Source of the DNA: a virus
Length of the DNA: 64,000 bases
Direction: 5' to 3' (one strand)
Virus record (IMG/VR): IMGVR_UViG_3300010158_000045
Coordinates: 1 to 64,000 of that record
This document shows, one piece after another, positions 40,811 to 61,590 of the stretch. Each line of letters begins with the position of its first letter. Position 1 is the first letter of the stretch. The notes beneath the pieces were generated by a model, which worked only from the letters and a program-made list of their open reading frames with translations, made no database searches and was not told the origin of the DNA. A program made the translations under genes and the position numbers.

Positions 40811-40826
40811 ATACAGCTACACCAAA

Positions 40827-44136: not shown

Positions 44137-44137
44137 T

Positions 44138-46543: not shown

Positions 46544-46766
46544 TATCATCTCTTTCTAAAAACTGTGATACTTGATGCTCTGCGTCTTGAATACTTTCAG
46601 CCCAAACTGTAAATGTAGCAATGCCTTTACTAGCACTAATATCAAACGGAACAGTACCTTGAGGCAACCAGTTATCACCTACTTCACGTTTAATCTCAAA
46701 CTTATTTAGGTCTGTAGTTTTCATACGATAAATTAATTCGTCAGTTAGTTGTTTTGCTGTTTCCAT
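46536..46766 (-). CDS. Hypothetical protein
   Basis: 76-aa ORF overlapping both neighbours. Confidence 0.6.
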   Translation of the reverse strand: METAKQLTDELIYRMKTTDLNKFEIKREVGDNWLPQGTVPFDISASKGIATFTVWAESIQDAEHQVSQFLERDDNE

Positions 46767-47097: not shown

Positions 47098-47858
47098 TTT
47101 GAAGCATACTCCTGTTGCATTTTAATGTTGTCAAAGAATTCTTTCTTTGTGCCATGATCGTCTTTGAACGCACCTTTAAGTACAGTAGTCTGCGTTAAAC
47201 TACTCTTGGCCATAATGCCACGATTCTCACAACATCCATGTACTGCTTGTACATACACACCTAAGTCTCTTGCACCTGTTGCTTTTTGGATTTCGCGGGC
47301 AATGTCGTTACACAATTCTTCTTGTAGTGTTCCTCTGCGAGCACACCACTGGGCAATACGTGTATACTTAGATAAGCCAATAAGTTTTTCAGCCGCAATA
47401 ATACCAATGTAAGCAACACCAACAACGGGCTGATGATGATGACTGCACATAGAACGAAGCTCACTACGTACAACCAACATGCCTTCATAACGGTCTGCTG
47501 AATCGTTTGGAAACGCTGTTGCGTCTGGTGCTGGATCATATCTACCTTCCATGATTTCATTAAAGTACATTTTAGCAAGACGCTTTGCAGTGCCCTTACT
47601 ATTAGGATCATTTTCTCTGTCAATAAGCAATGCATCTAAAACTTTTTCAAATGCTTCTGTAGCTTCTTTGATTAAAATGTCCTTGGCACCTTCATGCAAG
47701 TATTCGCTAATATTGTCGCCTGCCCAGAATCTTTTGCCATCACGTTTCATTTTAAAACGGATGTTATCTCCTAAGTATGCTTCTTTATAGTTTTTGTCGT
47801 CATCGCCTTGTTGTTCAGCGCCTGCAAGAATGTTGTTGTGTGTTTGGGATTCAGTCAT
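47094..47858 (-). CDS. folE: GTP cyclohydrolase I
   Basis: T..R.AKMY, SMCSHH, IGLSK..R, LQEE, HGC...RG Zn/active-site motifs. Confidence 0.96.
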   Translation of the reverse strand: MTESQTHNNILAGAEQQGDDDKNYKEAYLGDNIRFKMKRDGKRFWAGDNISEYLHEGAKDILIKEATEAFEKVLDALLIDRENDPNSKGTAKRLAKMYFNEIMEGRYDPAPDATAFPNDSADRYEGMLVVRSELRSMCSHHHQPVVGVAYIGIIAAEKLIGLSKYTRIAQWCARRGTLQEELCNDIAREIQKATGARDLGVYVQAVHGCCENRGIMAKSSLTQTTVLKGAFKDDHGTKKEFFDNIKMQQEYASK

Positions 47859-50053: not shown

Positions 50054-50435
50054 AGTGGTCTTTCACTAATTTGTAAGTTGTTTTAAATTTTTCGTATGCT
50101 ATTTTTAAGCCAGGATATTCTTCGCACATTTTTTCAATTCTGGAAAACTCCGGAAAACAATTAACCCATTCTTCTGGCAAATTAATTCTAAAATTAGATG
50201 TATCAATACTAATGCCGCCAATACCAGTAGACAATGTACTAATTTGCGTAGTAGTCAATGTTGGAATAGTATAACTAGTACCAGAGACATAGCAGTGATT
50301 ATTCAAAGTGATGGTATCACAGGAACTAAAACTATACCCTGGAGAGGTAATTGTTATGGTATCACTACCATGACAACTACTAGCATAATCAGTTGAGCTG
50401 GGCCAACAGGTTGTTTGCGGAGAAGAAGTTGTCAT
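50019..50435 (-). CDS. Hypothetical protein with Thr/Ser-rich N-terminus
   Basis: C-terminal EEYPGLKIAYEKF resembles that of 49183..49584. Start uncertain. Confidence 0.6.
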   Translation of the reverse strand: MTTSSPQTTCWPSSTDYASSCHGSDTITITSPGYSFSSCDTITLNNHCYVSGTSYTIPTLTTTQISTLSTGIGGISIDTSNFRINLPEEWVNCFPEFSRIEKMCEEYPGLKIAYEKFKTTYKLVKDHYDTPEDQRPRP

Positions 50436-51489
50436 GTAAATCCTTTGTTTGTTTACGTATGGCAGGTATCCTTGTAGAATAATTGTCCATGTGTTCTATT
50501 ATTGCACGGCATAAATCTGGTCTGTAAACTGTGTATGTGTCATAATCGTTGGTCCATACGCTGGGATATTTGAATGTGTCGTAATACATTTCAGTATAAC
50601 TTAAACGATCCGGAACCATGGGAATAGCATCAACTACCGCACCTTCATAGCAACTAATACCGAGTGTCTCTTGTAAATTTGCACTAAACACCATTTTAGC
50701 TTCACCTAACAAATTATGATATTCATTTTTTGTTAGCTGTTGATCCTGACATACTACAAATTCGTACTGTGGTAAATGATGTGCTAGATCTCTAAAGATT
50801 TCAACTTGCTTTTCTGGAGCAATACGATGCGGAAAAAGAATAAGGTCACGTTTAGGCATGCCTTTATACATGGCCAGGGTATCATGCATATATTCCATTG
50901 GCCAACCAGTTCGTACAATCTTAGAATATTCTCCGCTTAGTATTTCGGAAAGTTCTTCTTCGTACCAAGGATTTTCAGCAGTAGAACCATTGTTTAATAA
51001 TTCTCTGTTGAATAATTCAATATGAAAATCTGTAGCAAAGTAGTTGTGATCAAATGCAGAGAAAAAACTCTTTTCTGCATTACGTACCCAGGGCTTGTTG
51101 CCAACCAGTCGACCTAAAAAGTCTTGTGGGTCATAACTGCCGGCATGCCATAGTCCGTGTGTTGTTACTGGAATGCCTAGTAGCTCACTCATGTACTTTA
51201 AGTTTATAATGCCCGGATGCCAAGCGTCAGTAAAAATAAAGTGGTCGCCGGGATGAACGGATCCGCTACAAAATAACCGACCCATTTGTTCAACTTGAGC
51301 AGACTTGTATATATTGGTGCCACCAAAATTAAGAAAAGCACCAGGAGTAGTGGCTGTAGGAATATCCGTAGGGCCAGAGATAATTTGAACATTGTGTCCT
51401 GCCTTTCGTAAGAGTGCAGGTACATGAGCCTTCCACTGGCCCGTGTACCTTGTTTCAACAGCTTCTAGATCAACTAAGAATACGTTCAT
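50389..51489 (-). CDS. GT-B fold glycosyltransferase (GT4-like)
   Basis: LFPHRIAPEKQ and ETLGISCYEG (E-x-x-G-x4-E nucleotide-sugar motif); WHAG. Confidence 0.85.
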   Translation of the reverse strand: MNVFLVDLEAVETRYTGQWKAHVPALLRKAGHNVQIISGPTDIPTATTPGAFLNFGGTNIYKSAQVEQMGRLFCSGSVHPGDHFIFTDAWHPGIINLKYMSELLGIPVTTHGLWHAGSYDPQDFLGRLVGNKPWVRNAEKSFFSAFDHNYFATDFHIELFNRELLNNGSTAENPWYEEELSEILSGEYSKIVRTGWPMEYMHDTLAMYKGMPKRDLILFPHRIAPEKQVEIFRDLAHHLPQYEFVVCQDQQLTKNEYHNLLGEAKMVFSANLQETLGISCYEGAVVDAIPMVPDRLSYTEMYYDTFKYPSVWTNDYDTYTVYRPDLCRAIIEHMDNYSTRIPAIRKQTKDLHDNFFSANNLLAQLN

Positions 51490-51751: not shown

Positions 51752-52147
51752 TTAATATTTAATAAACGAACCATTTTCTCCGTCTTCGGAGACTTCAATC
51801 CAAACCTCTCGGTTGGGATACTTTAGTGCGATGATGGTATGTAAATCATCTGACATCATCTCACAACTCTTGTAGTCAAGGCTTAGAACGGCACCTTGAC
51901 CATTATACAGCGACTCGAGCCATCGTTTGAACTGGATAAACTCGATGTCCCTGTCATTGTGTTGCACACTGATCCACACCCTGAAATGAAAGATATGACG
52001 GTGAGGATTAGCAAGAAACGACACATCATATTCATCTCCTGTTGCTAGGTTAGGATCTGTTGCCGCCGCTGGGTAGCAATGAATACCTTCCTTGCGCAAG
52101 GTAACCCAGATCATTTTGTTAGGTCTAATGTCTTGTTTAATAATCAT
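51752..52147 (-). CDS. QueD-like T-fold protein with LxxxHRHxF motif (DpdL-like, putative CDG decarboxylase)
   Basis: EGIH, LANPHRHIF, DIEFIQFK, SCE and VSEDGE line up with QueD's AAH, HGH, DF..LK, TAE and V.ET, but the QueD CxxxHGH is absent. From my recall of the literature, LxxxHRHxF is the DpdL signature. Confidence 0.75.
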   Translation of the reverse strand: MIIKQDIRPNKMIWVTLRKEGIHCYPAAATDPNLATGDEYDVSFLANPHRHIFHFRVWISVQHNDRDIEFIQFKRWLESLYNGQGAVLSLDYKSCEMMSDDLHTIIALKYPNREVWIEVSEDGENGSFIKY

Positions 52148-52148
52148 A

Positions 52149-52805
52149 TTATACTTTCTTTAAGCGTTGTAGTGGGTAATCGGGAACAAACAAACCGTCT
52201 ATAAAAAATACTAAAGTCAATCTTCCTGTATCTTCAATACCGTGATAGTCGTCTGCCGCATGGTACAAATGACTATCAAACATTACTAATCTATTGAATT
52301 TATTTTTAACTGTAATAGATTTAGTAAACTGATCGTTGTTTTCTTTTCTAAATTTTTCAAACGCATCTGCCGAATCGGGATCCATGAAAGACTGCATTTT
52401 TTCTTTGTGATTTAACAGTTCAGTTGCTTCCTTGTTAGATTCCCAAATAGTAGTTCCACTATCTAAATCAGACTCTGGATCAAGATAGATAATACCTGTA
52501 ATCTTATCTAGATCTTTATGTACCCAACCTTGATTATAGCGTCTATCTACCATTTGGAATCCAGCAGTAGCATGCCATTTTACTTCGGTGTGTGTATGAT
52601 GAAAATCGTAAAACACACTTAATGATCGCATAATAATGTGGTTAAGTAGTGCAGGATCGATATCGTTAAGCAATGCTGTACGCTTACCAGGCCACAGGTT
52701 ATGTGGATCTGTTTTAAATTCCTGCTGTAATGCAAATTCTCTAACCTTCATAGGGTTATCAAAGAAGTCATCCACAACTGTAGTTGGAATAATATAATTC
52801 TTCAT
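52149..52805 (-). CDS. 2OG-Fe(II) oxygenase superfamily protein
   Basis: VVDDFFDNP N-terminus, HxD (WVHKD), GIIYL, GT, distal H (LYHAA), R (RLTLVFF). ATG 52805 is coupled to the upstream stop. Confidence 0.8.
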   Translation of the reverse strand: MKNYIIPTTVVDDFFDNPMKVREFALQQEFKTDPHNLWPGKRTALLNDIDPALLNHIIMRSLSVFYDFHHTHTEVKWHATAGFQMVDRRYNQGWVHKDLDKITGIIYLDPESDLDSGTTIWESNKEATELLNHKEKMQSFMDPDSADAFEKFRKENNDQFTKSITVKNKFNRLVMFDSHLYHAADDYHGIEDTGRLTLVFFIDGLFVPDYPLQRLKKV

Positions 52806-53320
52806 GCAATAACAGTGTCTTGTGTATACTGATCCCAATGAGTATACTTGTCTTTACTCATCAAGCTCTGTAAGTGATGTGTCCACACACCTGGATTTGT
52901 AGCACCCCAAGTGCGGTCGTCCAGTTTAAGAGTGGCATTGTAGTTGAGTTGATTAATGTAAGGTAGTTTAACACTGATCATGGGAACAAATCGAGGATAC
53001 TCATTATAAGCAGACTCTAACACACCCTCAATATGTTCAACACCAAAGTCTAAACTAACCCAATAGTCTTTCTTCAAGCATTCTAGGATAACATCATCCC
53101 ACGGTCTGTATTCTGCTTGTGATATTGCCTTAGGGTTAAAACTTTGACTAGTGCCAAAATAGATATGTTTTACTTTGCTTTCTTCAGCTTTTGTAAGAAT
53201 TTCTTTTATAGGTGGTGTACCTACAACAAACAATGTAAACATGCCATGACACACAGTATGTTCAACTTCATACCCTGTAAAGTAAACGACGCCTTGTCGT
53301 TCTTCAGTGTTTAGTCCCAT
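52802..53320 (-). CDS. Hypothetical protein in the modification locus
   Basis: 172-aa alpha/beta ORF (GYEVEHT, TLFVVG, HIYFG, NPGVW) overlapping both neighbours. Confidence 0.7.
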   Translation of the reverse strand: MGLNTEERQGVVYFTGYEVEHTVCHGMFTLFVVGTPPIKEILTKAEESKVKHIYFGTSQSFNPKAISQAEYRPWDDVILECLKKDYWVSLDFGVEHIEGVLESAYNEYPRFVPMISVKLPYINQLNYNATLKLDDRTWGATNPGVWTHHLQSLMSKDKYTHWDQYTQDTVIA

Positions 53321-54216
53321 TTGATATAACCTCTGCTGTAACCACACGGACGATTAACGCCGTCCGCAAACGCTTGTTGCCATTCAGTGTTACGATTATA
53401 ACACCGGGTCCAAAAACTATCAACCTCTAGATAGCCTTTTTCAATCCAATACTTGGCAAAATGCATACAATCAATAAATTGAGGATTTCGGGGACTAGGT
53501 TTAATAGTAGTAACGGCTTTCCAAAGTTGTGACTGGGCTTCTGATTTACTAACTGCTTTGCCTACTCCGTCTATAATCAACGCATTGTTATTTAGATTTA
53601 TTTCTGTGCCTAGTTCGTATTTTCCAGTAAGGTCTACAACAACATCGTAACTTTCGCTGGTACCTAACAATAATTTATCGCCCCAAAGTTCTTGATTATT
53701 TGAACCTAGCACATCCACATGATAGATATAACCGTTTAGACGCATGGTATGATAGGCAACCCACGCAAGAAATCCACTGCCAATAATTAACATTCTTGTA
53801 TTGTCGTTTTTGCCTTGTCGCGACTCCAATTGATCTTTGGCCTGATTGATAAGATTAATGCCGCAAGCAACGGGTTCTAATATATACTTGGGATCAGCTT
53901 CTGGTATTTCTACATATTCATCCATGCGCACATTGTAATAGTCTGCATAAGCAGGCTCTCCACGTGTTGCTACATAGTCTCCAACTCGAGTTGTTACTAC
54001 ATTTGATCCAACTTTAGTTACTCGGCCAATACCTTCATGGCCTTGCATGTGTAGAGGTAACGGGCCAAAGTCTCCCAACATCATATCAATGTCACTGCGA
54101 CATACACCGGTCATAACTGCCTTGACTTCTATTTCGTAGGATGTTGGTTCGGGTTTATCAAACTCCACTTCTTCAAAGTGGCCTTGACCTGTTGTTTGTA
54201 AACATTTAACTTTCAT
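53311..54216 (-). CDS. Zn-dependent medium-chain dehydrogenase (sugar/polyol type)
   Basis: GVCRSD and GHEGIG catalytic Zn ligands, EPVAC, IIGSG NAD-binding motif; no structural-Zn Cys4 loop. Confidence 0.88.
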   Translation of the reverse strand: MKVKCLQTTGQGHFEEVEFDKPEPTSYEIEVKAVMTGVCRSDIDMMLGDFGPLPLHMQGHEGIGRVTKVGSNVVTTRVGDYVATRGEPAYADYYNVRMDEYVEIPEADPKYILEPVACGINLINQAKDQLESRQGKNDNTRMLIIGSGFLAWVAYHTMRLNGYIYHVDVLGSNNQELWGDKLLLGTSESYDVVVDLTGKYELGTEINLNNNALIIDGVGKAVSKSEAQSQLWKAVTTIKPSPRNPQFIDCMHFAKYWIEKGYLEVDSFWTRCYNRNTEWQQAFADGVNRPCGYSRGYIKWD

Positions 54217-55097
54217 AAAGTTTCTATTTTCTCATGTATCCATGTATCTATATCAAATTGATCTAACCAGAATTGATAATTATCTATGTTATCGATAGCA
54301 TCTTTAATCATATTTAGGTATGCTTCTTCCGGACACCATCCTAATTCAAATCGTTCTATCTTGTTATCCGGCATTACAAACTCAATAGAGCTATCTTCTT
54401 CGTCCATACTACGCCAATTAGCTGTACAACGCCATTTACTGCCAAAGTTAATAACACACATATCATCGACATTGTATGTACCTTGTGGATTTACCACTCC
54501 GTAATCAGTACTGTCAATGTCTTTTAACTCCCAACACTGCATAGCAGTTTTACCGCTAACAGTATCTGCTCTCCATTGAGAGTTCATAGCTACATACAAA
54601 CTTAACAAATGGGGCATTAAGTCTCGACTAACTCCGCCAAACGCTAATTTCTTAGTAGTAAACCAACTGCCAGGACTGGGAATACAATTTTTACGTATCC
54701 AACGGATCTTAACTGTTTTAGCTCGATGGGCTAACTCTTTTAACTCAGCAATATTGCTACGCCACATATTATTTTTAACCATAATAAAGCGTGTTTGCGT
54801 AAACGTAGTTATTAGTTTTTGCCAAGTAGCACTGGTAGCAACGCCTGGTTTTTCAATAAAAACAATTTTACTAATAGGCGCAAGTTTTGCCGCAATTTCA
54901 AAATGCGTAAAATTTGGAGTACAAATATGCACAGTATCGAATCTACCATGTACTACAATAGCAGTATCAATGCTGATAAAATCTGCACCTTTACTGCTGT
55001 CATGATCGACGGTGACTACTTCATGTCCAAGTTTAGTTAAGACAGATTTGTATAACTGTCCAATACCCATGCCAATAATAAGGCTACGCTTGCTCAT
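54213..55097 (-). CDS. Gfo/Idh/MocA-family oxidoreductase
   Basis: IIGMG.G, ICTPNFTH, VFIEKP, GG...DL.PH. Confidence 0.88.
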   Translation of the reverse strand: MSKRSLIIGMGIGQLYKSVLTKLGHEVVTVDHDSSKGADFISIDTAIVVHGRFDTVHICTPNFTHFEIAAKLAPISKIVFIEKPGVATSATWQKLITTFTQTRFIMVKNNMWRSNIAELKELAHRAKTVKIRWIRKNCIPSPGSWFTTKKLAFGGVSRDLMPHLLSLYVAMNSQWRADTVSGKTAMQCWELKDIDSTDYGVVNPQGTYNVDDMCVINFGSKWRCTANWRSMDEEDSSIEFVMPDNKIERFELGWCPEEAYLNMIKDAIDNIDNYQFWLDQFDIDTWIHEKIETL

Positions 55098-55329
55098 TTT
55101 TCTTTTCCTCGTAGGCTCTAAACATTCGAGTTACTTCTTCCATTTGTTTTTGAAACACTTCGGGAGCACCTATTGCCGCAATTTGCATATCATATTCGCT
55201 GGGATAATGTCGTAAACAGCGTCTAGCACTATCTTTAATTGCTTTAGGCACTCGAGGAGTAGTTAAGATCTCTAGTAAAAATCTTTGAGTCTGTACTACT
55301 GCTCGATATCTTTCATCAGGTAATGTCAT
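55084..55329 (-). CDS. Small protein (BPSL0761-like)
   Basis: MTLPDERYRAV...FL...PRVP......A...LRHYP pattern; family name is from memory. Confidence 0.6.
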   Translation of the reverse strand: MTLPDERYRAVVQTQRFLLEILTTPRVPKAIKDSARRCLRHYPSEYDMQIAAIGAPEVFQKQMEEVTRMFRAYEEKKNEQA

Positions 55330-57022
55330 GTACACTTGCCTCTAATGCGTCAAGTTTATCAATAGCCGATTCGTCAAAATCAACTTCTTCATCTGATTGT
55401 ACACTATCTTCGTCCACTTCGTCAAACAATACGGAGAACATTTTACCAGCATTTACCGTTTTCTTACCAGTTGCGCCACGTGTTCCAGGAATAGCTTGCC
55501 AAAATTTATCAAATCCGTCAATGATTGCTTCTGCCGTTGCTCTATCTGGAGCACTAAAAATGGCATCTACTACATCTTTAAAGTAAACTCTTTCAAATTT
55601 TTCATCGACAAGCATAGCAGGACATAAGCCGGCGTCGTATTGACGATTGGCTTCTTGTACACTATTCAAATGTAACCATACATTATGACCCATCATAATA
55701 GCATAGGTGAAGCTATCCCAACTTGTCTTGCCTTCTTTACCTATCTTATTTAGGTCTCCAGGGCCGTATATACAAATATCTTTTACTTCTACACCATCCA
55801 TTAATGGACTTGTAGTAAAAGAAGTAAAATGTTTGTCTTGTACTACTACATCTTGGAAGAGTCGTGTGTCTTTGCTGTATTTTTTGTTGTCAAGACTTGG
55901 CAACATGCGATAGAGCCATTTTTGTCTGTCTTCGATTTCTGTTTGGACATAGATCTGTCCGTTTGCTGTTGCCAGAAACGGTGAGGCGCAGTCAAAAGAT
56001 ATGGTAAAGTTTTCATTATGATATTTCCTTATAGCTCGTTGTATGTCAGTTAATAACAATGCCCACTCTAACTTAGAGGTGCCCAGGAAGTGCATCCAAT
56101 CTTGATGACCTTTTTCAAGAAGACCGTCAAATTTCAATGCCACTAATCTACGTAATACCAAATCTACGTCACACATATTTTGTCCACCCATAGCCCAGCC
56201 ATTAAATGCCTTATCGCCATAGATGTTGGGATCGCAAAAGTCTTTCATTTGTTGATACCAATCTTCTGCTTGTCCGTGATTTTCGCCTTGCAATACATTT
56301 AAAAACTTACAAGCACCTGTACGATGTTTAATAAAGTATTCATTATTGTATTTTGTAGCGTTTACAGCTTGTTGATATGAACTAATACCAGTAGCCGCTT
56401 TTCCAACAGGGCTACGTTCAACCCACGCTGGAATATCAAGTACCATGCCGTAATCCATAAGTGCATCCATCCAAGTTAACACTTGTTCACGTTTCTTCTG
56501 CGCCGCATCTAACAGTGCTTGATAGTTTTTAACATGATCAATTTTAGTATACTTAGGATTTCCGTTTTTATCTAACTTAGGATCGCCAGTTGGATGTAAT
56601 TGAGGTACAAGTTCAACTCCTTTAGCCTGCACTTCTTTCCATTTGGCCGCAACTTCAGGGCCGGTAGGATCACGCCATTCTCCTGCCCATACGCCTTTAC
56701 CAATTTGGAATCCACCTGAATCTCCTAGGACCCAACTTGTTGAACGATCTCTGTTGCGGAACATGTCTTCGCTAGGATCTGGTTTGGTCAAATCTAAATT
56801 AGCATGTCCTGCTGAGTATAAACAATGGTCAAAGTAAAATGCCGCATTAGGATTTAAGTAATTCATTGCTTCAATACCCAATGGCCCAAAACTCTTAGGG
56901 ATACGTGCAGGGTCAACATAGTTACTATAACGTTGTTTACCTATATAAGTGCTATAAAATCCTGACGTTGCCGGCAGGAAATACGCATAGTCCGATTGAG
57001 TTGCTGTTAGATTTCTATTCAT
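55316..57022 (-). CDS. TGT-fold base-exchange transglycosylase (DpdA-like)
   Basis: DSGGFQ, MVLD, LNVLQG, GWAMGG, HFLG, ISFDCASP and HN map in order onto TGT motifs. No CxCxxC Zn site. Lies near folE, queE and the T-fold gene. Confidence 0.85.
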   Translation of the reverse strand: MNRNLTATQSDYAYFLPATSGFYSTYIGKQRYSNYVDPARIPKSFGPLGIEAMNYLNPNAAFYFDHCLYSAGHANLDLTKPDPSEDMFRNRDRSTSWVLGDSGGFQIGKGVWAGEWRDPTGPEVAAKWKEVQAKGVELVPQLHPTGDPKLDKNGNPKYTKIDHVKNYQALLDAAQKKREQVLTWMDALMDYGMVLDIPAWVERSPVGKAATGISSYQQAVNATKYNNEYFIKHRTGACKFLNVLQGENHGQAEDWYQQMKDFCDPNIYGDKAFNGWAMGGQNMCDVDLVLRRLVALKFDGLLEKGHQDWMHFLGTSKLEWALLLTDIQRAIRKYHNENFTISFDCASPFLATANGQIYVQTEIEDRQKWLYRMLPSLDNKKYSKDTRLFQDVVVQDKHFTSFTTSPLMDGVEVKDICIYGPGDLNKIGKEGKTSWDSFTYAIMMGHNVWLHLNSVQEANRQYDAGLCPAMLVDEKFERVYFKDVVDAIFSAPDRATAEAIIDGFDKFWQAIPGTRGATGKKTVNAGKMFSVLFDEVDEDSVQSDEEVDFDESAIDKLDALEASVHDIT

Positions 57023-57373
57023 TTAGATCCAGTGTTGTGCTAGTACCATTAGACTTAACCAAGCCCACATAGTATTAAAGCCTACTAGTGTTGGCAATGC
57101 TTTTTTACGGCTTGCCCAAATAAGTGTTACGCTGGTTAGTAATGTTAGATAATATAGTTCCCAGATTTGAATACCAAATATTAAACCTGGAATAATGATG
57201 ATGGCTTTGGCCAACCAACTGACAAATTCTACAGTATTGTATCCTGTCCAATACTCTTTGGTAAACCACATCATATAGCAGTCACGCATATTTGCCCAGC
57301 CGCTATGGCTATAACTAATTGCCATTAGTACTAGCCATACACCTACTGCCAATAGAATTTGATCTGTAGTCAT
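57023..57373 (-). CDS. Small multi-pass membrane protein
   Basis: About four Trp-rich hydrophobic segments. ATG 57373 follows the clamp stop, and its own stop abuts the DpdA-like ATG. Confidence 0.65.
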   Translation of the reverse strand: MTTDQILLAVGVWLVLMAISYSHSGWANMRDCYMMWFTKEYWTGYNTVEFVSWLAKAIIIIPGLIFGIQIWELYYLTLLTSVTLIWASRKKALPTLVGFNTMWAWLSLMVLAQHWI

Positions 57374-57374
57374 A

Positions 57375-58106
57375 TTATTTGCTCTGTGCCGGTAAAATAT
57401 ATTCGTATTCTGCAATACCGCTGTCTACTGTAATTTGTAGTGCGCCTTGGTCACTAATACGCATTGTTTTGTCGCCAGTTAGATTAAGAATACTCATAAC
57501 TTGTACAACGGGCCAAGACCATGCTTGTTTTAATTTGCCATCCACACCTGCTTGGAACGTAAATGATCCAGCGTGTGTGCTTGCATCTCCGAAACTAAAC
57601 ACTAGATTGTTGTTGTCTGTTCGAACTTGGAATGTTTGTTCTTCAGTGTGAGCACTTGCTTGGAACTTTAGCTTTTGAATACTAGCCATAGTCGGAGCAA
57701 ATTCTATGTTCCATGTTGCACCTTTGAACTTAACCGTCTTAAGTTTGTCATTGATGACTTCTGTGTTCATGAAACGATAGTCGTTTTCGAAGTCGCCAGG
57801 CCCGTTTTGAAAATGCAATCCTGTTGGAATTGTTTCTCCATTGCGTTCTTGCTTGACCACTTTAATGGTAAAGTTTTCTTTGTATTCTGGACACTTTAAA
57901 TGGATGTCTAGTTTATTTAGGTTAGGCATACCAAATACGCCTTCTAAGTCGTCGATTGCTTCTTTGGTCTTTGCATTAAGGATAACGCTACGATCTTCAG
58001 CCATTGATTCGATAACTGTTTCTTTATCAGTTGCACTAATTTTAATTAGTGGCAAAAATCCTAGGCTGTGTGTATGTGCTACTAGGTCTTGTAAAAAGTC
58101 TTTCAT
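57375..58106 (-). CDS. DNA polymerase sliding clamp (gp45/PCNA-like)
   Basis: 243-aa two-domain alpha/beta pattern, IS..G.L.I....G..EY.LP C-terminus, close to the polymerase gene. Confidence 0.7.
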   Translation of the reverse strand: MKDFLQDLVAHTHSLGFLPLIKISATDKETVIESMAEDRSVILNAKTKEAIDDLEGVFGMPNLNKLDIHLKCPEYKENFTIKVVKQERNGETIPTGLHFQNGPGDFENDYRFMNTEVINDKLKTVKFKGATWNIEFAPTMASIQKLKFQASAHTEEQTFQVRTDNNNLVFSFGDASTHAGSFTFQAGVDGKLKQAWSWPVVQVMSILNLTGDKTMRISDQGALQITVDSGIAEYEYILPAQSK

Positions 58107-58126: not shown

Positions 58127-58154
58127 ATTATATAGGTTTTTGTGACTATGTCAA
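58127..58154 (-). promoter_or_regulatory. Sigma70-type promoter for the clamp-DpdA operon
   Basis: TTGACA, 16 nt, TATAAT; GGAG RBS before ATG 58106. Confidence 0.7.
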
Positions 58155-58919
58155 ATGTTTTCTTATCGTTTTATTATATTCTACTGCCGCATCGAGTATG
58201 GTCAAAGGTTGTTGGGCCTTATTTGCATATTCGAGTAACGCATTAGTATCCTTGGGGAAACAAGCACCCCCAAATCCTCTGTCTCCGTCGAAGCCAACAA
58301 CAGTATGACTATTACCGATACGAGAATCGTGAGCAATAATTTGCCTTACTAAATTGTAGTCAGCGCCACTAACCTTGCATAGATCATATAACTGATTAAA
58401 AAATGCTACTTTAGTGGCTAGGAAACTGTTAATACTGTATTTGACCAACGATGCTTCAGTCACACTACAGTAAAAATACAATTTACAATCAGGAAGTACT
58501 GATGTAAATAATTCTTGCCAAAATCCTTCTGGATCTTCTCCACCTAGTACCATGTACTTTTGATTGGCAAAATCCTCCACTGAGCTAACAGCCCGTAAAA
58601 ATTCTGGATTGTAGCAAATACTGTGATTTTCAAATGCTGATTGTATTGCAAACAATTGATCCGGCACTATTGTAGATTTAATCAGTACTGGCATGAATAC
58701 AGGAACTGATTTTAATACAGCATAGACTTGACTGTCATCACATGCATGTTGCTCTGTTTGGGGAGTACCCACACAGACAATAATACCATCAGCATCTGAA
58801 TGATCAGCAATCGACTCGTTGCCATATTTTGGATCAACAATAACTAACTCATGTTGTTTTTCTAGTGTACTTGCCACTGCTTTGCCTACAAAGCCATATC
58901 CTGCGATTATAATTTTCAT
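58146..58919 (-). CDS. UDP-glucose/GDP-mannose 6-dehydrogenase family, lacking the C-terminal domain
   Basis: GYGFVG, VCVGTP, IKST, YNPEFL, KY..N.FLA.KV.F.N, D.RIG and catalytic GFGGACFPKD. Confidence 0.9.
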   Translation of the reverse strand: MKIIIAGYGFVGKAVASTLEKQHELVIVDPKYGNESIADHSDADGIIVCVGTPQTEQHACDDSQVYAVLKSVPVFMPVLIKSTIVPDQLFAIQSAFENHSICYNPEFLRAVSSVEDFANQKYMVLGGEDPEGFWQELFTSVLPDCKLYFYCSVTEASLVKYSINSFLATKVAFFNQLYDLCKVSGADYNLVRQIIAHDSRIGNSHTVVGFDGDRGFGGACFPKDTNALLEYANKAQQPLTILDAAVEYNKTIRKHLT

Positions 58920-58920
58920 A

Positions 58921-61590
58921 TTAAAACTCGAATAAACTGTTAAATGTATTTTTTTCTTCGGTACTTCTCACGTCCCATTTAAGCACACCAATCAAATTTT
59001 CTAATTTCTTATCAATAATAGTGGCCTCCATTTCTGCATGATCAAAAGGCAAATCCTTGAACCACTGCGGAAGTCTCAGCTCGTCTACTGGATAAGCCAC
59101 ACTGGTAAACGCCAGCGGATTAGGTTTGAGTTTACAAACAATAACTTTCTGACCATCAGTAATGTTCATTGAGTATTTGTCGTTGTACATTCTTTTGAGC
59201 GTATTCCAATTAATACTTGCTCGTACATGACCAGGCATATTAGCCTTGCCAGCTTTCTTCTCTTTTGCTTCGTATTCTGTAACTTTGTTTGCACGTTTTG
59301 GACTTCCTTTTTCCCAACCTGGACGAGCTTTGAATTTACTTCTAAACTCACTAATGCTGTCTAACACAGCCTGTTCTTCCTTGCCAGTAAGCACCATTTC
59401 TAAAACTTCGCTTAAAAAGTCTTGAATAAATTCTGGTGTATCACTGCGTTTGAGATCCAGCCCCATGGCTTTAATCTTGCCTGGTTTGCCATCTACGTCT
59501 GTGCGCTTGCCTTCTTTATCATAATACAGCACCGCATAACGTTTCTTGGTAATGAATAAACTCTTTGACCCAACAATTTCTCGGCCAGCTTTGATAACTT
59601 CGCCACGTGATTTAGGTACGTGGAATGTGTCCAACATAAACTGTGGGAACGTGTTGTTAACTTCATCTGCAATTTGATCATACAGTTGAATTACATTTTC
59701 CCGACTCCACGGAATTGCGCCACTATCGATATCTTTCTTTAACGTCTTGTATGCTGAGAAATAACATGAGTCTGTATCACCATAGATAACTGCTTTACCC
59801 ACGTGGTCATACTCACCTGTGATAATTTCATTTACCTTACTGGCCATATGCTTGGCAATTTGTCTGCCAACCAATGTTGTCGACTGACCAATTCGCTTGT
59901 CAAAGAACCTGCATCCACTGTTAAGAATAGCACCATACAAACTGTTAAGATTAATTTTCTTAACCAACTGTCGTTTGTCCCAATATTCCTCTTCAACTTT
60001 ATTGCCGGCCTTGATAGCTTCTTTTAATTTGGCCTGCATTTCTTTACGTTCTGCATACCAGCGTTTTAGTAGTCCAGGAATAATACCTTCTTTTTCATAA
60101 GTAAAAATTGTGCCGTTACTAGACAACATCCAAGGTTGGTTACTTTCAAATATGAGTCTATATACTTCGGCGGCACTTACTACGTCAACATCTCCGTTTT
60201 CCCAATCAATGGTAATGTCTGTGCCAATCTCTTGAGCCATTACTGCTTCATATTCATCCGCACCGAATTTACCTTCCCAGGCAGCCGCAAAACTTTTACC
60301 TTTGGCTATTTGTGCTTCGATGTATTCTTCAGTTTTAGTCTGACGTAACTGTCCAATAATTGTTTCTGGACCCATGTTAAGCGCACGAATAGCACTTGGA
60401 TAAAGACTATTGATATCCAATGAACCTACCCAGTCTTGAATACCTTCTTTGGGATAAGCAACATACGCACCAGCCGCACCTTCGTTATCTTCACGTTCAC
60501 TCATCTTAGTGCGGTTAGGCACTTGCATGCCTCTGCGATGGCATTCGTTAATAATAGCTTGCTCAGTTACCGCCACAGCACCCATTGTTGTCTGTAGTAA
60601 TACTGTATTTTCATGTGCCAGTGTATTGGCAAGGTCCATGAACTTTAATTTCTTATCAAGATCGTCAAGCAGTTTACAGTCATTGATGTTATATTCAACA
60701 AACGTCTTAAAGTCATTGTTGTATAATTGGTCGAGTGTACCTTCATATTGTGTTTTACGTTTACCTAACTCATATTCCGCAATGGCGTCAAGTCTATAAC
60801 TGTGGCGTTCTTCATACGTATACTTACGGTACAACTCAAGATAGTCTAAATGAACGCGACCAATGTAGTCATAGGTTACACTATCACGACCAAACTTTTC
60901 ATATTCTCTGCGTTTAGGAAACTGATCAAACAAACAGAAACGACGGGTATCTTCTTTACTCAATACCTTTGTCACTCTATTTGTGGTATAAGGCACGTCA
61001 AATCCTTCACTGTTCCAACCACTAAGCACGTCTGCATCTTTAATTAGATCCAAGAACATATCCAACAAGTCTGCTTCTTTGTCAAACAAATAAGTGTTAG
61101 GAAAATCTTTGACCATTTCCTTGGCTTCTTCCATCTTAAGACCTTTAGGAGGAATAGCCAAACATACCATAGTTTCTAACCATTGTAGGTAGACAGCAAT
61201 CGCAGTAATTGGCATGAACGCATCATCTGGACTTGCATAGCCACGCTCTGGATCAAAGTCTACCTCAATATCGAAAAATGCTACATTTAGTTTAGGCGCA
61301 TCTTGATTTAAATAGTGTTCACTTAGTGTAACAAAGATTGGATTAATATCGCTTTCAAACAATTCTTTGCCGCTGTTAATAGCCTGCTCTTTTCTGAGCT
61401 CTTTAGTATTTTTACAAACAATCTTGGTTAAGGAATCGCCGTAGATGGATTCAAATTTGCCGCGAGGGTCTTTAACATAGAACGTGTGTTTGACAGGAAT
61501 GTCACGGAACTCACGCTCACCTTTTTTATTACGTTCAACAACGCGAATGATATCATTCTCGCGGTCAAACCATGCGTCTACATAAGACAT
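58921..61590 (-). CDS. Family B DNA polymerase (gp43-like)
   Basis: ExoI FDIE, ExoII GWNSEGFD.PY, ExoIII YNIND; Pol motifs DINSLYPS, K..LNSLYG, YGDTDS, KKRY. Confidence 0.97.
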   Translation of the reverse strand: MSYVDAWFDRENDIIRVVERNKKGEREFRDIPVKHTFYVKDPRGKFESIYGDSLTKIVCKNTKELRKEQAINSGKELFESDINPIFVTLSEHYLNQDAPKLNVAFFDIEVDFDPERGYASPDDAFMPITAIAVYLQWLETMVCLAIPPKGLKMEEAKEMVKDFPNTYLFDKEADLLDMFLDLIKDADVLSGWNSEGFDVPYTTNRVTKVLSKEDTRRFCLFDQFPKRREYEKFGRDSVTYDYIGRVHLDYLELYRKYTYEERHSYRLDAIAEYELGKRKTQYEGTLDQLYNNDFKTFVEYNINDCKLLDDLDKKLKFMDLANTLAHENTVLLQTTMGAVAVTEQAIINECHRRGMQVPNRTKMSEREDNEGAAGAYVAYPKEGIQDWVGSLDINSLYPSAIRALNMGPETIIGQLRQTKTEEYIEAQIAKGKSFAAAWEGKFGADEYEAVMAQEIGTDITIDWENGDVDVVSAAEVYRLIFESNQPWMLSSNGTIFTYEKEGIIPGLLKRWYAERKEMQAKLKEAIKAGNKVEEEYWDKRQLVKKINLNSLYGAILNSGCRFFDKRIGQSTTLVGRQIAKHMASKVNEIITGEYDHVGKAVIYGDTDSCYFSAYKTLKKDIDSGAIPWSRENVIQLYDQIADEVNNTFPQFMLDTFHVPKSRGEVIKAGREIVGSKSLFITKKRYAVLYYDKEGKRTDVDGKPGKIKAMGLDLKRSDTPEFIQDFLSEVLEMVLTGKEEQAVLDSISEFRSKFKARPGWEKGSPKRANKVTEYEAKEKKAGKANMPGHVRASINWNTLKRMYNDKYSMNITDGQKVIVCKLKPNPLAFTSVAYPVDELRLPQWFKDLPFDHAEMEATIIDKKLENLIGVLKWDVRSTEEKNTFNSLFEF

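What the first reader, a model, noticed from the sequence alone, without database searches (positions are those of the whole stretch)
55316..57022. Long, Zn-site-less TGT/DpdA homologue with a large insertion after the catalytic DSGGFQ motif
Seen: 568 aa, versus roughly 375 aa for bacterial TGT. All core motifs are in order, but about 60 extra residues follow DSGGFQ (WRDPTGPEV...PKLDKNGNPKYTKIDH), there is no CxCxxC, and the C-terminal tail is acidic. It shares a promoter with the sliding clamp. Inference: a distinct DNA-acting DpdA subfamily, possibly coupled to the replisome, with a pocket for CDG, DG or a larger base.
Basis: partly seen in the sequence, partly recalled or inferred. Interest (0 to 1): 0.7.

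Follow-up and report, generated by a model that had tools for sequence, protein, structure and literature searches.

The report
Clamp-docking phage DNA deazaguanine transglycosylase
This gene of an uncultured freshwater giant phage encodes an enzyme of the type that swaps guanine in DNA for a protective 7-deazaguanine base, and its floppy tail carries the same short peptide as the phage's DNA polymerase, so it probably rides on the replication clamp.

Summary
The ORF is real: 55316..57022, minus strand, 568 aa. No Pfam, PHROG, NCBIfam or PDB-sequence search names it. A confident AlphaFold model (pLDDT 92) is nevertheless a TGT-fold barrel (VIA Z 19 to archaeal and bacterial TGT). D101, D196, Q245-G246 and D344 sit where TGT has its catalytic residues.

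It belongs to a very large, almost purely viral family whose cultured members include Pseudomonas phage PA5oct gp168. By profile comparison the nearest named subfamily is DpdA2, not DpdA3.

The missing CxCxxC zinc motif is ordinary: all 10 phage DpdA sequences I checked lack it. The "insertion" is an exact 50-residue indel, present in 26 of 76 close relatives.

FolE, a QueE-like protein and a DpdL-type CDG decarboxylase lie within 10 kb, which points to 7-deazaguanine in DNA.

The disordered tail carries an FxxLF[DE] peptide like the C-terminus of the phage polymerase. The peptide is conserved, and it co-varies with the polymerase tail across distant phages. It is predicted to dock in the PIP pocket of the adjacent PCNA-like clamp (score 0.66, best control 0.01).

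A conserved sigma-70-type promoter precedes the clamp gene. Neither activity nor binding has been measured. Earlier agents of this scan reached the same clamp-tail reading on other genomes.

The parts
55316..57022 (-). Gene for the 568-aa TGT-fold, DpdA-like transglycosylase
   Evidence: ORF. AF2 model pLDDT 92, pTM 0.90. Foldseek PDB: all 49 listed rows are TGT/QTRT1, best E 4.2e-8. VIA: Z 19.0 to 1iq8_A and to 2ash_B.
56705..56722 (-). DSGGFQ motif, residues 101-106; D101 aligns with the conserved Asp of the ILTDSGGFQV stretch of E. coli TGT
   Evidence: D101, S102, G103 and G104 are invariant in 89 of 89 family sequences. hhalign to E. coli TGT.
56519..56668 (-). 50-residue insertion (residues 119-168) in the loop after strand 3 ('Ins3' in the bDpdA paper); modelled as one helix plus a Lys-rich beta-hairpin
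   Evidence: Exact indel, present in 26 of 76 and absent in 50 of 76 relatives. Secondary structure H122-134, E136-140, E158-162. 8 K+R and 6 D+E. Role of Ins3 in TGT and DpdA taken from PMC10164549.
56435..56437 (-). D196 codon (LDIP), aligned with the Asp of MIFDEC in E. coli TGT
   Evidence: At least 90% conserved in the family. hhalign.
55991..55993 (-). D344 codon (ISFDC), the candidate nucleophile; aligned with ISYDS of nt-1 DpdA2
   Evidence: Invariant in 89 of 89. hhalign to DpdA2.
55409..55459 (-). Residues 522-538 of the disordered tail, holding the putative clamp-docking peptide K-M-F-S-V-L-F-D-E (527-535)
   Evidence: pLDDT below 50 over residues 515-545. Motif found in 67 of 75 IMG/VR relatives, against a shuffle mean of 6.9 and maximum of 16. 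Predicted contacts at 522-529 and 531-538, with the lowest errors at M528, F529, L532 and F533.
55319..55417 (-). Acidic C-terminal extension (residues 536-568) ending in a predicted helix (551-566); absent from the 485-487-aa relatives, which stop right after the LF motif
   Evidence: 13 D+E and 1 K+R. Helix 551-566. Short forms L061-L080.
57023..57415 (-). 130-aa membrane-like ORF between the clamp gene and the transglycosylase gene; a variable insert
   Evidence: ORF. No family hit. Homologue present in only 12 of 80 related loci.
57375..58106 (-). PCNA-like sliding clamp, 243 aa
   Evidence: AF2 pLDDT 94.4. All listed Foldseek PDB rows are PCNA-type clamps, E about 1e-10, TMq 0.60-0.72. 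Present in 79 of 80 related loci.
58127..58154 (-). Sigma-70-type promoter-like site (TTGACA-16-TATAAT, 12 of 12) directly upstream of the clamp gene
   Evidence: Scores 10 of 12 or better in 68 of 76 related loci, placed 17-33 nt before the clamp start codon. This is a consensus match only.
58921..61590 (-). Family B DNA polymerase, 889 aa; its last 9 residues (58924..58950) are N-T-F-N-S-L-F-E-F
   Evidence: PF00136 at 9.8e-39. Tail sequence. Among 137 ORFs of the record it is the only convincing case with this C-terminal motif.
51752..52147 (-). DpdL-type QueD paralogue (proposed CDG decarboxylase) carrying L-x3-H-R-H-x-F
   Evidence: Sequence. The motif is defined in PMC10516641. tblastn gives 54% identity to ACP17 DpdL, 53% to PA5oct and 34% to phiST. 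Present in 65 of 80 loci.
50389..51489 (-). 366-aa GT1-like glycosyltransferase, a conserved companion of the module
   Evidence: 35% identical to ACP17 gp124, E 2e-65. 41% identical to PA5oct gp167. Atlas clusters are named GT family 1 (a lead only). Present in 58 of 80 loci.
47094..47858 (-). GTP cyclohydrolase I (FolE)
   Evidence: PF01227 at 7.2e-39.
45692..46549 (-). QueE-like radical-SAM protein
   Evidence: 32% identical over 288 aa to PA5oct gp162 'QueE-like', E 6e-26. Pfam Radical_SAM scores only 17.4 bits, below its cut-off.

Best explanation
The gene encodes a zinc-less, TGT-fold DNA transglycosylase of the phage DpdA kind.

Inferred mechanism:
1. FolE, a QueD encoded elsewhere, the QueE-like protein and DpdL make a free 7-deazaguanine base (DG, or its precursor CDG).
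2. The enzyme flips out a guanine in double-stranded phage DNA.
3. D344 attacks C1' to form a covalent intermediate, with help from D101.
4. The deazapurine is put in place of guanine.

The gene is expressed with the sliding clamp from a conserved early, host-type promoter. A short FxxLF[DE] peptide in its disordered tail is the same kind of peptide that ends the phage DNA polymerase. This peptide docks in the hydrophobic pocket of the PCNA-like clamp, so the enzyme is held on freshly replicated DNA. The 50-residue Lys-rich hairpin insert enlarges the loop that, in TGT and bacterial DpdA, flanks the active site and reads the nucleic acid.

What is shown: fold, conserved residues, gene context, conservation of the tail motif, the clamp fold, and the predicted docking.
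What is inferred: DNA as substrate, the identity of the base, real clamp binding, and the role of the insert.

My odds are about 0.8 for a DNA deazaguanine transglycosylase and about 0.65 for clamp docking.
For: Fold and catalytic residues:
- AF2 model pLDDT 92.
- All 49 listed Foldseek PDB rows are TGT/QTRT1.
- VIA: Z 19.0, rmsd 4.6 over 288 residues to arcTGT 1iq8_A; Z 19.0, rmsd 4.1 over 296 residues to T. maritima TGT.
- D101, D196, Q245-G246 and D344 are aligned and conserved.

Kinship:
- hhalign to DpdA2: 97.5%, E 5e-12, 184 columns.
- The family HMM hits 6 of 6 DpdA2 sequences.
- BFVD structure hits include nt-1 DpdA2 at 2e-9 and Motura 'tRNA guanine transglycosylase'.

Gene context:
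- FolE, a QueE-like protein and DpdL lie within 10 kb.
- Across 80 related loci, DpdL is present in 65, FolE in 41, the clamp in 79 and the polymerase in 77.
- The Vibrio phage 2.275.O homologue sits beside QueF, YhhQ, QueC and FolE. PA5oct gp168 sits near DpdL and QueE.
- No tRNA gene is found in the window.

Clamp docking:
- The tails match each phage's own polymerase in the window, PA5oct, 2.275.O and ACP17 and in X1, Ps15 and BUCT-ZZ01.
- In a same-phage pairing test, 1 of 20,000 permutations reached the observed score.
- The motif is found in 67 of 75 close relatives and moves to the extreme C-terminus in L023, L028, L040, L042 and L047.
- The 243-aa neighbour folds as PCNA.
- Complex score 0.66, 0.65 and 0.66 against a best control of 0.01. 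The mark was reached by 58 of 80 solved complexes and 2 of 110 mismatched pairs. The runs agree in at least 44% of contacts, and partner pLDDT is at least 46.
- T4 gp43 and T4 ligase bind gp45 through LDFLF peptides (PMC6212786, passages).

Promoter.
Against: - No activity or binding has been measured.
- No Pfam, NCBIfam or PHROG hit, and identity to TGT is only 12-17%.
- QueD was not found in the 89-kb record. The record is only about 24% complete.
- DpdL chemistry is itself unproven: the authors could not obtain dDG in E. coli with phiST or ACP17 DpdL plus DpdA (PMC10516641).
- The window's own tail is less like its own polymerase tail than many other tails are: rank 13 of 17.
- 55 of 84 diverse family representatives lack the strict motif in their last 60 residues.
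- nt-1 DpdA2 lacks the motif and pf16 has only a partial match.
- The complex predictor can pass by likeness to solved clamp-peptide complexes, and the partner's fold is uncertain (pLDDT 46-50). My own alignments were used, and the job had three clamp copies, unlike the calibration.
- Relatedness among the phages inflates both the motif counts and the permutation test.
Confidence: 0.6

Rival explanations
1. It is a tRNA-guanine transglycosylase that modifies host or phage tRNA (queuosine or archaeosine type), not DNA.
For: The best solved structural matches are tRNA enzymes. The catalytic residues are shared. Giant phages often carry tRNA genes elsewhere in their genomes, and only about 24% of this genome is in hand.
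Against: - No tRNA gene in the 64-kb window.
- No PF01702 hit and no zinc site.
- No QueA, QueG or PUA-type partner was seen among the neighbours I scanned.
- The gene sits between the clamp/polymerase genes and a DpdL set.
- The tail carries a polymerase-type clamp peptide.
- The cultured relative PA5oct has restriction-resistant DNA.
- The nearest named relatives are DNA-acting DpdA2 (nt-1 DNA data in PMC6884629).
Confidence: 0.06
2. It is a DNA deazaguanine transglycosylase that works untethered. The FxxLF[DE] peptide binds another partner (clamp loader, polymerase, SSB) or is a shared low-complexity feature of replication proteins with no docking role.
For: - The motif is missing from many family members: 55 of 84 by the strict pattern.
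- It is missing from nt-1 DpdA2, an active enzyme.
- The window's tail is not the best match to its own polymerase tail.
- The complex score may come from memory of PCNA-peptide structures.
Against: - The motif is kept in 67 of 75 relatives while its flanks drift, and it relocates to the very C-terminus when the internal copy is lost.
- Fine co-variation with the polymerase tail: self is rank 1 of 17 in 6 phages.
- The predicted contacts are exactly the motif residues and the clamp's connector loop and C-terminus. Those clamp positions are invariant or at least 90% conserved.
- The clamp gene lies immediately upstream in 79 of 80 loci.
Confidence: 0.22
3. It is a TGT-fold enzyme with a different acceptor. 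It might attach a deazapurine to a protein, as reported for the CBASS enzyme Cap10, or exchange the base on a free nucleotide before polymerisation.
For: TGT-family enzymes have been remodelled for nucleobase-protein conjugation (bioRxiv 10.1101/2025.04.06.647259; search listing and start of abstract only). The C-terminal half (residues 345-510) and the insert have no assigned role. A pre-replicative route was once discussed for Campylobacter phages (PMC6884629).
Against: No CBASS or conjugation partner lies nearby. Clamp docking makes sense only on DNA. The published view is that all known phage 7-deazaguanines are inserted after replication by DpdA (PMC10516641).
Confidence: 0.05

Closest known systems
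PA5oct gp168 (YP_010679046.1) and its copies in PA5oct-like Pseudomonas jumbo phages; also Vibrio phage 2.275.O NVP2275O_468 and a Sinorhizobium phage Phosso protein
   Same: - Same family: 32%, 29% and 28% identity over at least 80% of the length.
- Same gene order, polymerase then clamp-like gene then small ORF then this gene then GT-like gene then DpdL.
- Same tail peptide logic.
- PA5oct DNA shows a modified G by restriction tests, and PA5oct is said to hold a 'deazaguanine synthesis/incorporation system' (PMC7824862, one passage).
   Different: These proteins are annotated 'hypothetical protein'. They lack the 50-residue insert: PA5oct-type P0138 has spacing 44. 2.275.O pairs the enzyme with QueC, QueF and YhhQ instead of DpdL.
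DpdA2 (Vibrio phage nt-1 YP_008125322; Acidovorax phage ACP17 gp123; KVP40-like, Stenotrophomonas and Xanthomonas phages)
   Same: - Nearest named subfamily: hhalign 97.5%, E 5e-12 over 184 columns; HMM hits on 6 of 6; Foldseek BFVD 2e-9.
- Q rather than the DpdA1 His in the xQG motif.
- No CxCxxC.
- ACP17, X1 and BUCT-ZZ01 also pair it with DpdL and the GT-like gene.
- 4 of 6 end in their own polymerase's tail peptide.
   Different: No BLAST cross-hit in either direction. The window family has about 100 residues before the DSGG motif, against about 75 in DpdA2. Only the barrel core aligns. DpdA2 proteins are 403-464 aa.
DpdA3 (Cellulophaga phage phiST CGPG_00065, 259 aa)
   Same: Distant TGT-like enzyme in a FolE, QueD, QueE, DpdL set without QueC. 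phiST DNA carries dDG (PMC10516641). hhalign gives 75-85% probability over 83-84 columns.
   Different: - Less than half the length.
- The DpdA3 HMM does not find the window family (best E 0.18).
- Foldseek E is only 0.02.
- No clamp-type tail.
- An earlier scan note says PA5oct's protein is tabulated as DpdA3 in the paper's Data S1. Supplements were closed, so I could not check this. My tests place the family nearer to DpdA2.
Bacterial DpdA (S. Montevideo, PDB 7UI4) and tRNA-guanine transglycosylases (Z. mobilis, E. coli, P. horikoshii)
   Same: TIM-barrel TGT fold with insertions on the catalytic face and the same three Asp positions. The window's insert lies in the same beta3/alpha3 loop ('Ins3') that flanks the active site in both.
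   Different: Those enzymes have a structural CXCX2C...H zinc site, said to be conserved in the DpdA family, and this one has none. Identity is 12-17%. They have no clamp peptide. bDpdA works with the ATPase DpdB (abstract).
Clients of the T4/RB69 clamp gp45: the gp43 polymerase tail EKASLDFLFG and the T4 DNA ligase loop EPEGLDFLFD
   Same: A short hydrophobic LF-type peptide in a flexible segment binds a pocket on a trimeric clamp. It can be C-terminal or internal (PMC6212786, passages). Here the polymerase and the transglycosylase share such a peptide.
   Different: A base-exchange DNA-modifying enzyme as a clamp client appeared in none of my searches. The clamp here is closer in fold to PCNA than to anything HMMER finds by sequence in the PDB.

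Membership tests
TGT superfamily (Pfam PF01702, tRNA-guanine transglycosylase fold) | (beta/alpha)8 barrel of the TGT type | tested here: met
   VIA Z 19.0 (rmsd 4.6, 288 aligned) to 1iq8_A and Z 19.0 (rmsd 4.1, 296 aligned) to 2ash_B; all 50 listed entries are TGT-family. Foldseek probability 1.00.
TGT superfamily (Pfam PF01702, tRNA-guanine transglycosylase fold) | Match to the curated sequence model | tested here: not met
   No Pfam family even at E<=10. PF01702 has no match in the 89-kb record, while 14 of 14 control genomes match. The family profile finds no TGT chain in PDB sequences.
TGT superfamily (Pfam PF01702, tRNA-guanine transglycosylase fold) | Catalytic Asp pair plus the base-recognising Asp (Z. 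mobilis D102, D280 and D156; numbering recalled) | tested here: met
   D101 and D344 are invariant and D196 is at least 90% conserved. They are aligned to E. coli TGT and to DpdA2.
TGT superfamily (Pfam PF01702, tRNA-guanine transglycosylase fold) | Structural zinc site CxCxxC...H | tested here: not met
   No such motif in the protein. Only 3 of 89 family members have any CxC or CxxC, none conserved. E. coli TGT has CDCYTC.
Phage DpdA (DNA 7-deazaguanine transglycosylase, functional family) | Encoded with 7-deazaguanine synthesis genes | tested here: met
   FolE, a QueE-like protein and DpdL lie within 10 kb. DpdL is present in 65 of 80 related loci and FolE in 41 of 80. QueD was not found in the partial record.
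Phage DpdA (DNA 7-deazaguanine transglycosylase, functional family) | Exchanges guanine in DNA for a 7-deazaguanine base | not testable with these tools
   Only indirect evidence: PA5oct, which carries a homologue, has DNA resistant to five G-containing restriction sites (PMC12191111).
DpdA2 subfamily | Sequence kinship with nt-1 DpdA2 (PSI-BLAST/HHpred level) and absence of the DpdA1 histidine (PMC6884629) | tested here: inconclusive
   The profile-level link is clear: hhalign 97.5% and HMM E from 8.5e-9 to 0.027 in a 3,744-sequence database. Q245 replaces the His. But BLAST finds no cross-hit, and only the barrel core aligns. It is best called a sister clade.
DpdA3 subfamily | Sequence kinship with phiST CGPG_00065 | tested here: inconclusive
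   hhalign 75-85% over 83-84 columns. The family HMM hits phiST at 4.6e-4, but the DpdA3 HMM does not hit the family (0.18). tblastn with phiST DpdA3 finds 11 records, none of this family. The paper's own table (Data S1) could not be read.
Sliding-clamp clients (T4 gp45 / PCNA PIP-type peptides) | Short hydrophobic peptide in a flexible segment, shared with the cognate polymerase | tested here: met
   Tail pLDDT below 50. Motif in 67 of 75 relatives. Matches to each phage's own polymerase tail. 1 of 20,000 permutations reached the observed pairing score.
Sliding-clamp clients (T4 gp45 / PCNA PIP-type peptides) | Physical binding to the clamp pocket | not testable with these tools
   Prediction only: score 0.66 against a best control of 0.01. 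The mark was reached by 58 of 80 solved complexes and 2 of 110 mismatched pairs. Contact agreement at least 44%, partner pLDDT at least 46. The pass may reflect likeness to solved clamp-peptide complexes.

The most novel reading that the evidence does not exclude
Base exchange in DNA is hooked to the replisome. The transglycosylase competes for, or follows, the polymerase on the same PCNA-like clamp, using a polymerase-type peptide. It converts guanines on nascent duplex DNA to 7-deazaguanine almost as fast as the DNA is made. The conserved GT1-like neighbour may then decorate the product further. The 50-residue Lys-rich hairpin would tune which guanine contexts are read. This would be a phage counterpart of the PCNA-bound maintenance enzymes of eukaryotes. 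It might also explain why some DpdA lineages modify most guanines while the tail-less nt-1 enzyme modifies about 0.1%.
Probability: 0.45. Interest if true: 0.8.

Novelty: new variant of a known kind. Interest (0 to 1): 0.62.

Why it matters
7-Deazaguanine DNA is a major phage shield against restriction enzymes and CRISPR. How DpdA enzymes reach every guanine of a genome of 300 kb or more within one infection cycle is an open question.

This family is very common in environmental viromes. At least 7,778 clusters at 90% identity were found, and 582 of 599 pattern matches in IMG/VR were confirmed as relatives. No curated model names it, so deazaguanine-modified phages are being under-counted.

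A clamp-docking peptide gives a concrete, cheap test of a mechanism: peptide-clamp binding, and tail mutants in PA5oct. It offers a rule for finding other clamp clients in phages. It may also help in making such enzymes work in heterologous hosts, where the authors' attempts with DpdL plus DpdA from phiST and ACP17 yielded no dDG.

Tried and rejected
Sequence-only naming failed.
- Pfam at E<=0.01 and E<=10, PHROGs and NCBIfam gave nothing.
- phmmer against PDB sequences gave one chance hit at E 1.7.
- The family profile against PDB sequences gave three chance hits, none a TGT.
- Megablast of 12 kb around the gene against phage records found nothing.

The clamp could not be named by sequence either. 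The only PDB hit was a SIR2 protein at E 0.35. The Atlas gave only a lead. The fold settled it.

I considered filing the protein as DpdA3, following an earlier scan note, and rejected that as untested.

I rejected the zinc-less state as a subfamily marker, because DpdA1, DpdA2 and DpdA3 phage sequences lack the motif too.

Bacterial DpdA 7UI4 is not among the 50 VIA entries shown.

A scan of one genome per prokaryote species used two patterns specific to the close clade. It gave 8 loci, all in MAGs of unrelated phyla, one of them a 335-kb contig. I read these as mis-binned phage contigs, not as cellular homologues.

Sequencing runs:
- Six runs hold half or more of the sampled words. Three are labelled freshwater metagenome, from three studies. 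Three are labelled metagenome, from one study. The best holder may be the source sample.
- Short contigs identical to the gene and to the clamp gene occur in two lake-water RNA libraries (X10 records 9, 11, 16; X16 records 17, 20, 23, 24). DNA can be present in such libraries, so I do not count this as proof of transcription. No contig spanned the clamp-to-transglycosylase stretch.

I did not build a phylogeny across TGT, arcTGT and DpdA1-4. At 10-17% identity, with only the barrel core alignable, a tree would not be trustworthy. I used pairwise profile and HMM scores instead. arcTGT and DpdA4 sequences were not fetched.


Full report
OBSERVATION

The ORF at 55316..57022 on the minus strand begins with ATG and encodes 568 aa. 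Its ATG directly follows the stop codon of the upstream ORF. The N-terminus is conserved from residue 1 in relatives.

The window is the first 64 kb of an 89,397-base IMG/VR virus record that CheckV rates about 24% complete, so it is a fragment of a giant phage. Near-identical DNA occurs in freshwater metagenomes: six runs hold half or more of the sampled words, and the best holder may be the source sample.

WHAT THE PROTEIN IS

Curated sequence libraries do not recognise it.
- Pfam gives nothing at E<=0.01 or E<=10, and PHROGs and NCBIfam give nothing.
- PF01702 finds nothing in the whole record, although it fires in 14 of 14 control genomes.
- Neither the protein nor a profile of 89 family members finds a TGT among PDB sequences.

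The family is nevertheless huge.
- At least 7,778 clusters at 90% identity scored E<=0.001 among the 8,000 candidates examined.
- In a library of 1.84 billion representatives, 924 clusters at 50% identity reach E<=0.001. Of these, 575 reach 1e-10 and 144 reach 1e-30.
- In annotated phage records only 13 hold it: 11 PA5oct-like Pseudomonas jumbo phages, Vibrio phage 2.275.O and Sinorhizobium phage Phosso. All annotate it as 'hypothetical protein'.

The fold is clear. With an alignment of 89 sequences (A1), AlphaFold gave pLDDT 92.0 and pTM 0.90. Only residues 515-545 are disordered.
- In Foldseek against the PDB, all 49 listed rows are bacterial TGT or eukaryotic QTRT1. The best E is 4.2e-8, probability 1.00, identity 11-14%.
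- VIA-align gave Z 19.0 (rmsd 4.6, 288 residues) to P. horikoshii archaeosine TGT. It gave Z 19.0 (rmsd 4.1, 296 residues) to T. maritima TGT, and about 18 to Z. mobilis TGT. The match covers model residues 9-488.

The catalytic positions are conserved. Invariant columns in the family are S70, D101, S102, G103, G104, P198, H311 and D344. Q106, D196, N242, G246, G275 and W276 are at least 90% conserved. hhalign places D101 on the Asp of the ILTDSGGFQV stretch of E. coli TGT, D196 on the Asp of MIFDEC, LQG on IIQG and GWAMGG on GYAVGG. It places ISFDC on ISYDS of nt-1 DpdA2.

WHICH SUBFAMILY

I compared the family profile with small alignments of the named phage subfamilies.

hhalign results:
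- DpdA2 (nt-1, ACP17, pf16, X1, Ps15, BUCT-ZZ01): 97.5%, E 5e-12, 184 columns.
- E. coli TGT: 88.8%.
- DpdA3 (phiST, MA9V-3, BSP7): 75.2%. Against phiST alone it was 84.6%.
- Phage 9g DpdA1: no match.

HMM searches in a 3,744-sequence database:
- The family HMM hits 6 of 6 DpdA2 sequences (E from 8.5e-9 to 0.027) and phiST DpdA3 at 4.6e-4.
- The DpdA2 HMM hits family members back (best 3e-6).
- The DpdA3 HMM does not (best 0.18).

Structure search among viral models agrees. After the family's own members come Motura 'tRNA guanine transglycosylase' (4.5e-10) and nt-1 DpdA2 (2e-9). phiST DpdA3 is at rank 29 with E 0.02. BLAST links none of these groups.

I therefore read the family as a separate clade nearest to DpdA2. 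I could not open supplements, so this stays unchecked. Iyer et al. 2021 already state that PA5oct has a 'deazaguanine synthesis/incorporation system' (PMC7824862, one passage). The family was therefore probably noticed before, though it was never characterised.

Length. The family median is 490 aa, with a range of 418-622. About 100 residues precede D101, and a median of 196 follow D344.

Insertion. The D101-D196 spacing is 94 in the window, against a family median of 44. Among 76 close sequences (57-90% identity), 26 have exactly 94 and 50 have exactly 44. It is a clean 50-residue indel (residues 119-168), and it is also found in some relatives only 60-61% identical.
- It is modelled with high confidence as a helix and a beta-hairpin and holds 8 K+R.
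- It lies in the beta3/alpha3 loop. In TGT and in bacterial DpdA this loop ('Ins3') flanks the active site and helps read the nucleic acid (PMC10164549, passages).
- Its function here is a guess.

Zinc site. It is absent, and absent in the whole family. However, CxCxxC is also absent from 6 of 6 DpdA2, 3 of 3 DpdA3 and the 9g DpdA1 sequence I checked, and present in E. coli TGT. This contrasts with bacterial DpdA, whose zinc site is described as conserved. It is not special among phage enzymes.

Acidic tail. Confirmed: 13 D+E and 1 K+R in the last 33 residues.

CONTEXT AND LIKELY SUBSTRATE

On the same strand and tightly packed lie the following genes.
- The family B polymerase (PF00136).
- A UDP-glucose-dehydrogenase-like gene.
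- The 243-aa clamp.
- A 130-aa membrane ORF.
- This gene.
- A BPSL0761-family ORF.
- Two oxidoreductases.
- An unknown 181-aa ORF.
- A DUF6445 2OG oxygenase.
- A 131-aa QueD paralogue.
- A 366-aa GT-like protein.

Further on lie FolE and a QueE-like protein.

The 131-aa protein carries LxxxHRHxF, the signature the authors give for DpdL, their proposed CDG decarboxylase (PMC10516641, passages). It is 54% identical to the ACP17 protein and 34% identical to the phiST protein.

No QueC, QueF or YhhQ homologue is found in the record or in 80 related loci. This matches the published 'FolE, QueD, QueE, DpdL, no QueC' pattern that goes with 2'-deoxy-7-deazaguanosine. QueD itself was not found in the 89 kb. 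In PA5oct it lies far from the cluster (gp230).

Across 80 IMG/VR loci with relatives, homologue counts are as follows:
- clamp 79, polymerase 77, the 181-aa ORF 73
- DpdL 65, the GT-like protein 58, FolE 41
- the sugar and oxidoreductase genes 22-34

Two observations from cultured phages bear on this. The Vibrio phage 2.275.O homologue sits by QueF, YhhQ, QueC, an amidotransferase and FolE, so family members probably handle different 7-deazaguanines. [quoted passage not shown]

The window has no tRNA gene.

DNA as the substrate is thus well supported by context, but it was not measured. The authors also report that DpdL plus DpdA from phiST or ACP17 gave no dDG in E. coli.

THE TAIL AND THE CLAMP

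I found the following before consulting earlier notes.

Looking at the tails of family members, I saw a recurrent FxxLF[DE] peptide, often at the very C-terminus. The phage's own polymerase ends in N-T-F-N-S-L-F-E-F, and the transglycosylase tail has K-M-F-S-V-L-F-D-E at residues 527-535, inside the disordered stretch.

Pairs from cultured phages:
- PA5oct: polymerase ...HFDSLFGW, gp168 ...SFNSLFDV.
- Vibrio 2.275.O: polymerase ...NNTDLFDW, homologue ...NNNDLFGW. Both are C-terminal.
- ACP17 (DpdA2): polymerase ...SLDDLFE, gp123 ...TLDELFE.
- X1: ...SLESLFG and ...SLEELFG.
- Ps15: ...SLEDLFGW and ...SLDDLFG.
- BUCT-ZZ01: ...TLDDFFS and ...SLDSFFD.
- pf16 matches only partly, and nt-1 not at all.

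Conservation:
- In 72 IMG/VR loci with both ends complete, the pairs can be read side by side.
- The pattern [FYLMIW]xx[LMF]F occurs in the last 60 residues of 67 of 75 relatives. Shuffled tails give a mean of 6.9 and a maximum of 16 in 500 shuffles.
- It occurs in 29 of 84 diverse representatives. Shuffles give a mean of 9.6 and a maximum of 17.
- Where the internal copy is lost (L023, L028, L040, L042, L047), a new copy sits at the extreme C-terminus. The 485-487-aa forms end right after the motif.

Co-variation. I ran a pairing test over 17 phages, scoring each polymerase's last 9 residues against each transglycosylase tail. It gave a same-phage sum reached by 1 of 20,000 random pairings. 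Self was rank 1 of 17 in six phages. For the window itself, however, self was only rank 13 of 17. The phages are also related to each other, so this result is suggestive and not a probability.

The clamp:
- The 243-aa neighbour folds with pLDDT 94.4.
- All of its listed PDB matches are PCNA-type clamps.

The complex prediction used three clamp copies plus tail residues 505-568.
- It scored 0.66, 0.65 and 0.66, against a best control of 0.01.
- The mark was reached by 58 of 80 solved complexes and 2 of 110 mismatched pairs.
- The runs agree in at least 44% of contacts, and partner pLDDT is at least 46.
- Contacts are tail residues 522-529 and 531-538, with the lowest error at M528, F529, L532 and F533.
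- On the clamp they are residues 38-42, 119, 123-130, 157-158, 197, 199, 220-222 and 237-243. These are the connector loop and the C-terminus, which from recall form the PIP pocket of PCNA.
- Many of these clamp positions are invariant or at least 90% conserved.
- The model supports binding but does not show it. Clamp-peptide complexes are well represented among solved structures, so the pass may come from likeness. My job also differed from the calibration.

Precedent. T4 polymerase (EKASLDFLFG) and an internal loop of T4 ligase (EPEGLDFLFD) bind gp45, the ligase peptide with a Kd of 10.7 uM (PMC6212786, passages).

Literature. Two full-text searches found no paper that connects a DpdA-type enzyme with a clamp, judged from listings only. 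'DpdA' plus 'sliding clamp' gave 2 papers. 'deazaguanine', 'clamp', 'phage' and 'transglycosylase' gave 14 papers. 'DpdA5' gave none.

PROMOTER

A perfect TTGACA-16-TATAAT lies at 58154..58127 (-), about 20 nt before the clamp start. No terminator-like site lies on that strand between 50000 and 62500. A site of 10 of 12 or better stands at the same place in 68 of 76 related loci, and 29 of these are perfect. Phage 9g also has the order polymerase, clamp, DpdA1.

VERDICT

This is a real, highly conserved phage enzyme of the DpdA kind, from a large clade that no curated model names and that is nearest to DpdA2. Most likely it inserts 7-deazaguanine or a close precursor into phage DNA (my odds about 0.8). 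It is probably held on the phage's PCNA-like clamp by a polymerase-type peptide (about 0.65).

The enzyme class is known. The clamp tether, the 50-residue insert and the conserved glycosyltransferase companion are the new elements.

Earlier agents of this scan reached the same clamp-tail and glycosyltransferase readings on other genomes, so this window adds another instance rather than a first sighting.

Both limit what I could check.

Noticed in passing
50389..51489 (-): A 366-aa protein travels with the transglycosylase and DpdL in both the window family and DpdA2 phages. It is 35% identical to ACP17 gp124 and 41% identical to PA5oct gp167, and is present in 58 of 80 loci. Atlas clusters call it glycosyltransferase family 1 (a lead only); Pfam gives nothing. 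It could mean that the inserted base or the DNA is further glycosylated. No such base came up in the papers I read.
   Followed up: partly
52802..53347 (-): A 181-aa ORF with no hit in Pfam, PHROGs or NCBIfam is present in 73 of 80 related loci. That is more often than DpdL. It is an uncharacterised core member of the module.
   Followed up: no
52149..55335 (-) and 58146..58919 (-): Variable genes are interleaved with the deazaguanine set. They are a BPSL0761-family 83-aa protein (NF041728, 5.6e-19), a GFO/IDH/MocA oxidoreductase, an ADH_N protein, a DUF6445 2OG-Fe(II) oxygenase and a short (257-aa) UDP-glucose-dehydrogenase-like protein. They occur in 34, 23, 22, 1 and 28 of 80 loci. This may be an accessory sugar or oxidation branch.
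   Followed up: partly
6850..21810 (+): A single open reading frame of 4,986 aa follows one of 1,147 aa. It was not examined and is presumably a giant virion or fibre protein.
   Followed up: no
57023..57415 (-): A 130-aa hydrophobic ORF is wedged between the clamp and transglycosylase genes. It starts at TTG and overlaps the clamp gene by 41 nt. A homologue is present in only 12 of 80 related loci. One DNA contig and one RNA-library contig in public runs skip 57049-57335, with 9 other letters in between. This suggests strains without most of it.
   Followed up: partly
L096 (phage 9g) 36..3960: In Enterobacteria phage 9g, the type DpdA1 phage, the annotated order is DNA polymerase, 'replicative clamp', DpdA, FolE, QueD. 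The clamp-DpdA adjacency therefore recurs in a third DpdA subfamily. I did not examine its tail for a clamp motif.
   Followed up: no
L085 (Vibrio phage nt-1) 2992..4386 and L092: nt-1 DpdA2 lacks the polymerase-type C-terminal peptide. nt-1 DNA is reported to carry only about 0.1% modified G (PMC6884629). DpdA2 enzymes of ACP17, X1, Ps15 and BUCT-ZZ01 do carry the peptide. Whether the tail predicts the modification level is untested.
   Followed up: partly
39568..41918 (-) and 43441..44196 (-): A MoxR-like AAA ATPase sits beside a DUF2201 metallopeptidase/VWA protein, together with a Bax1-I family membrane protein (PF01027, 1.6e-52). This is unusual cargo for a phage replication region.
   Followed up: no
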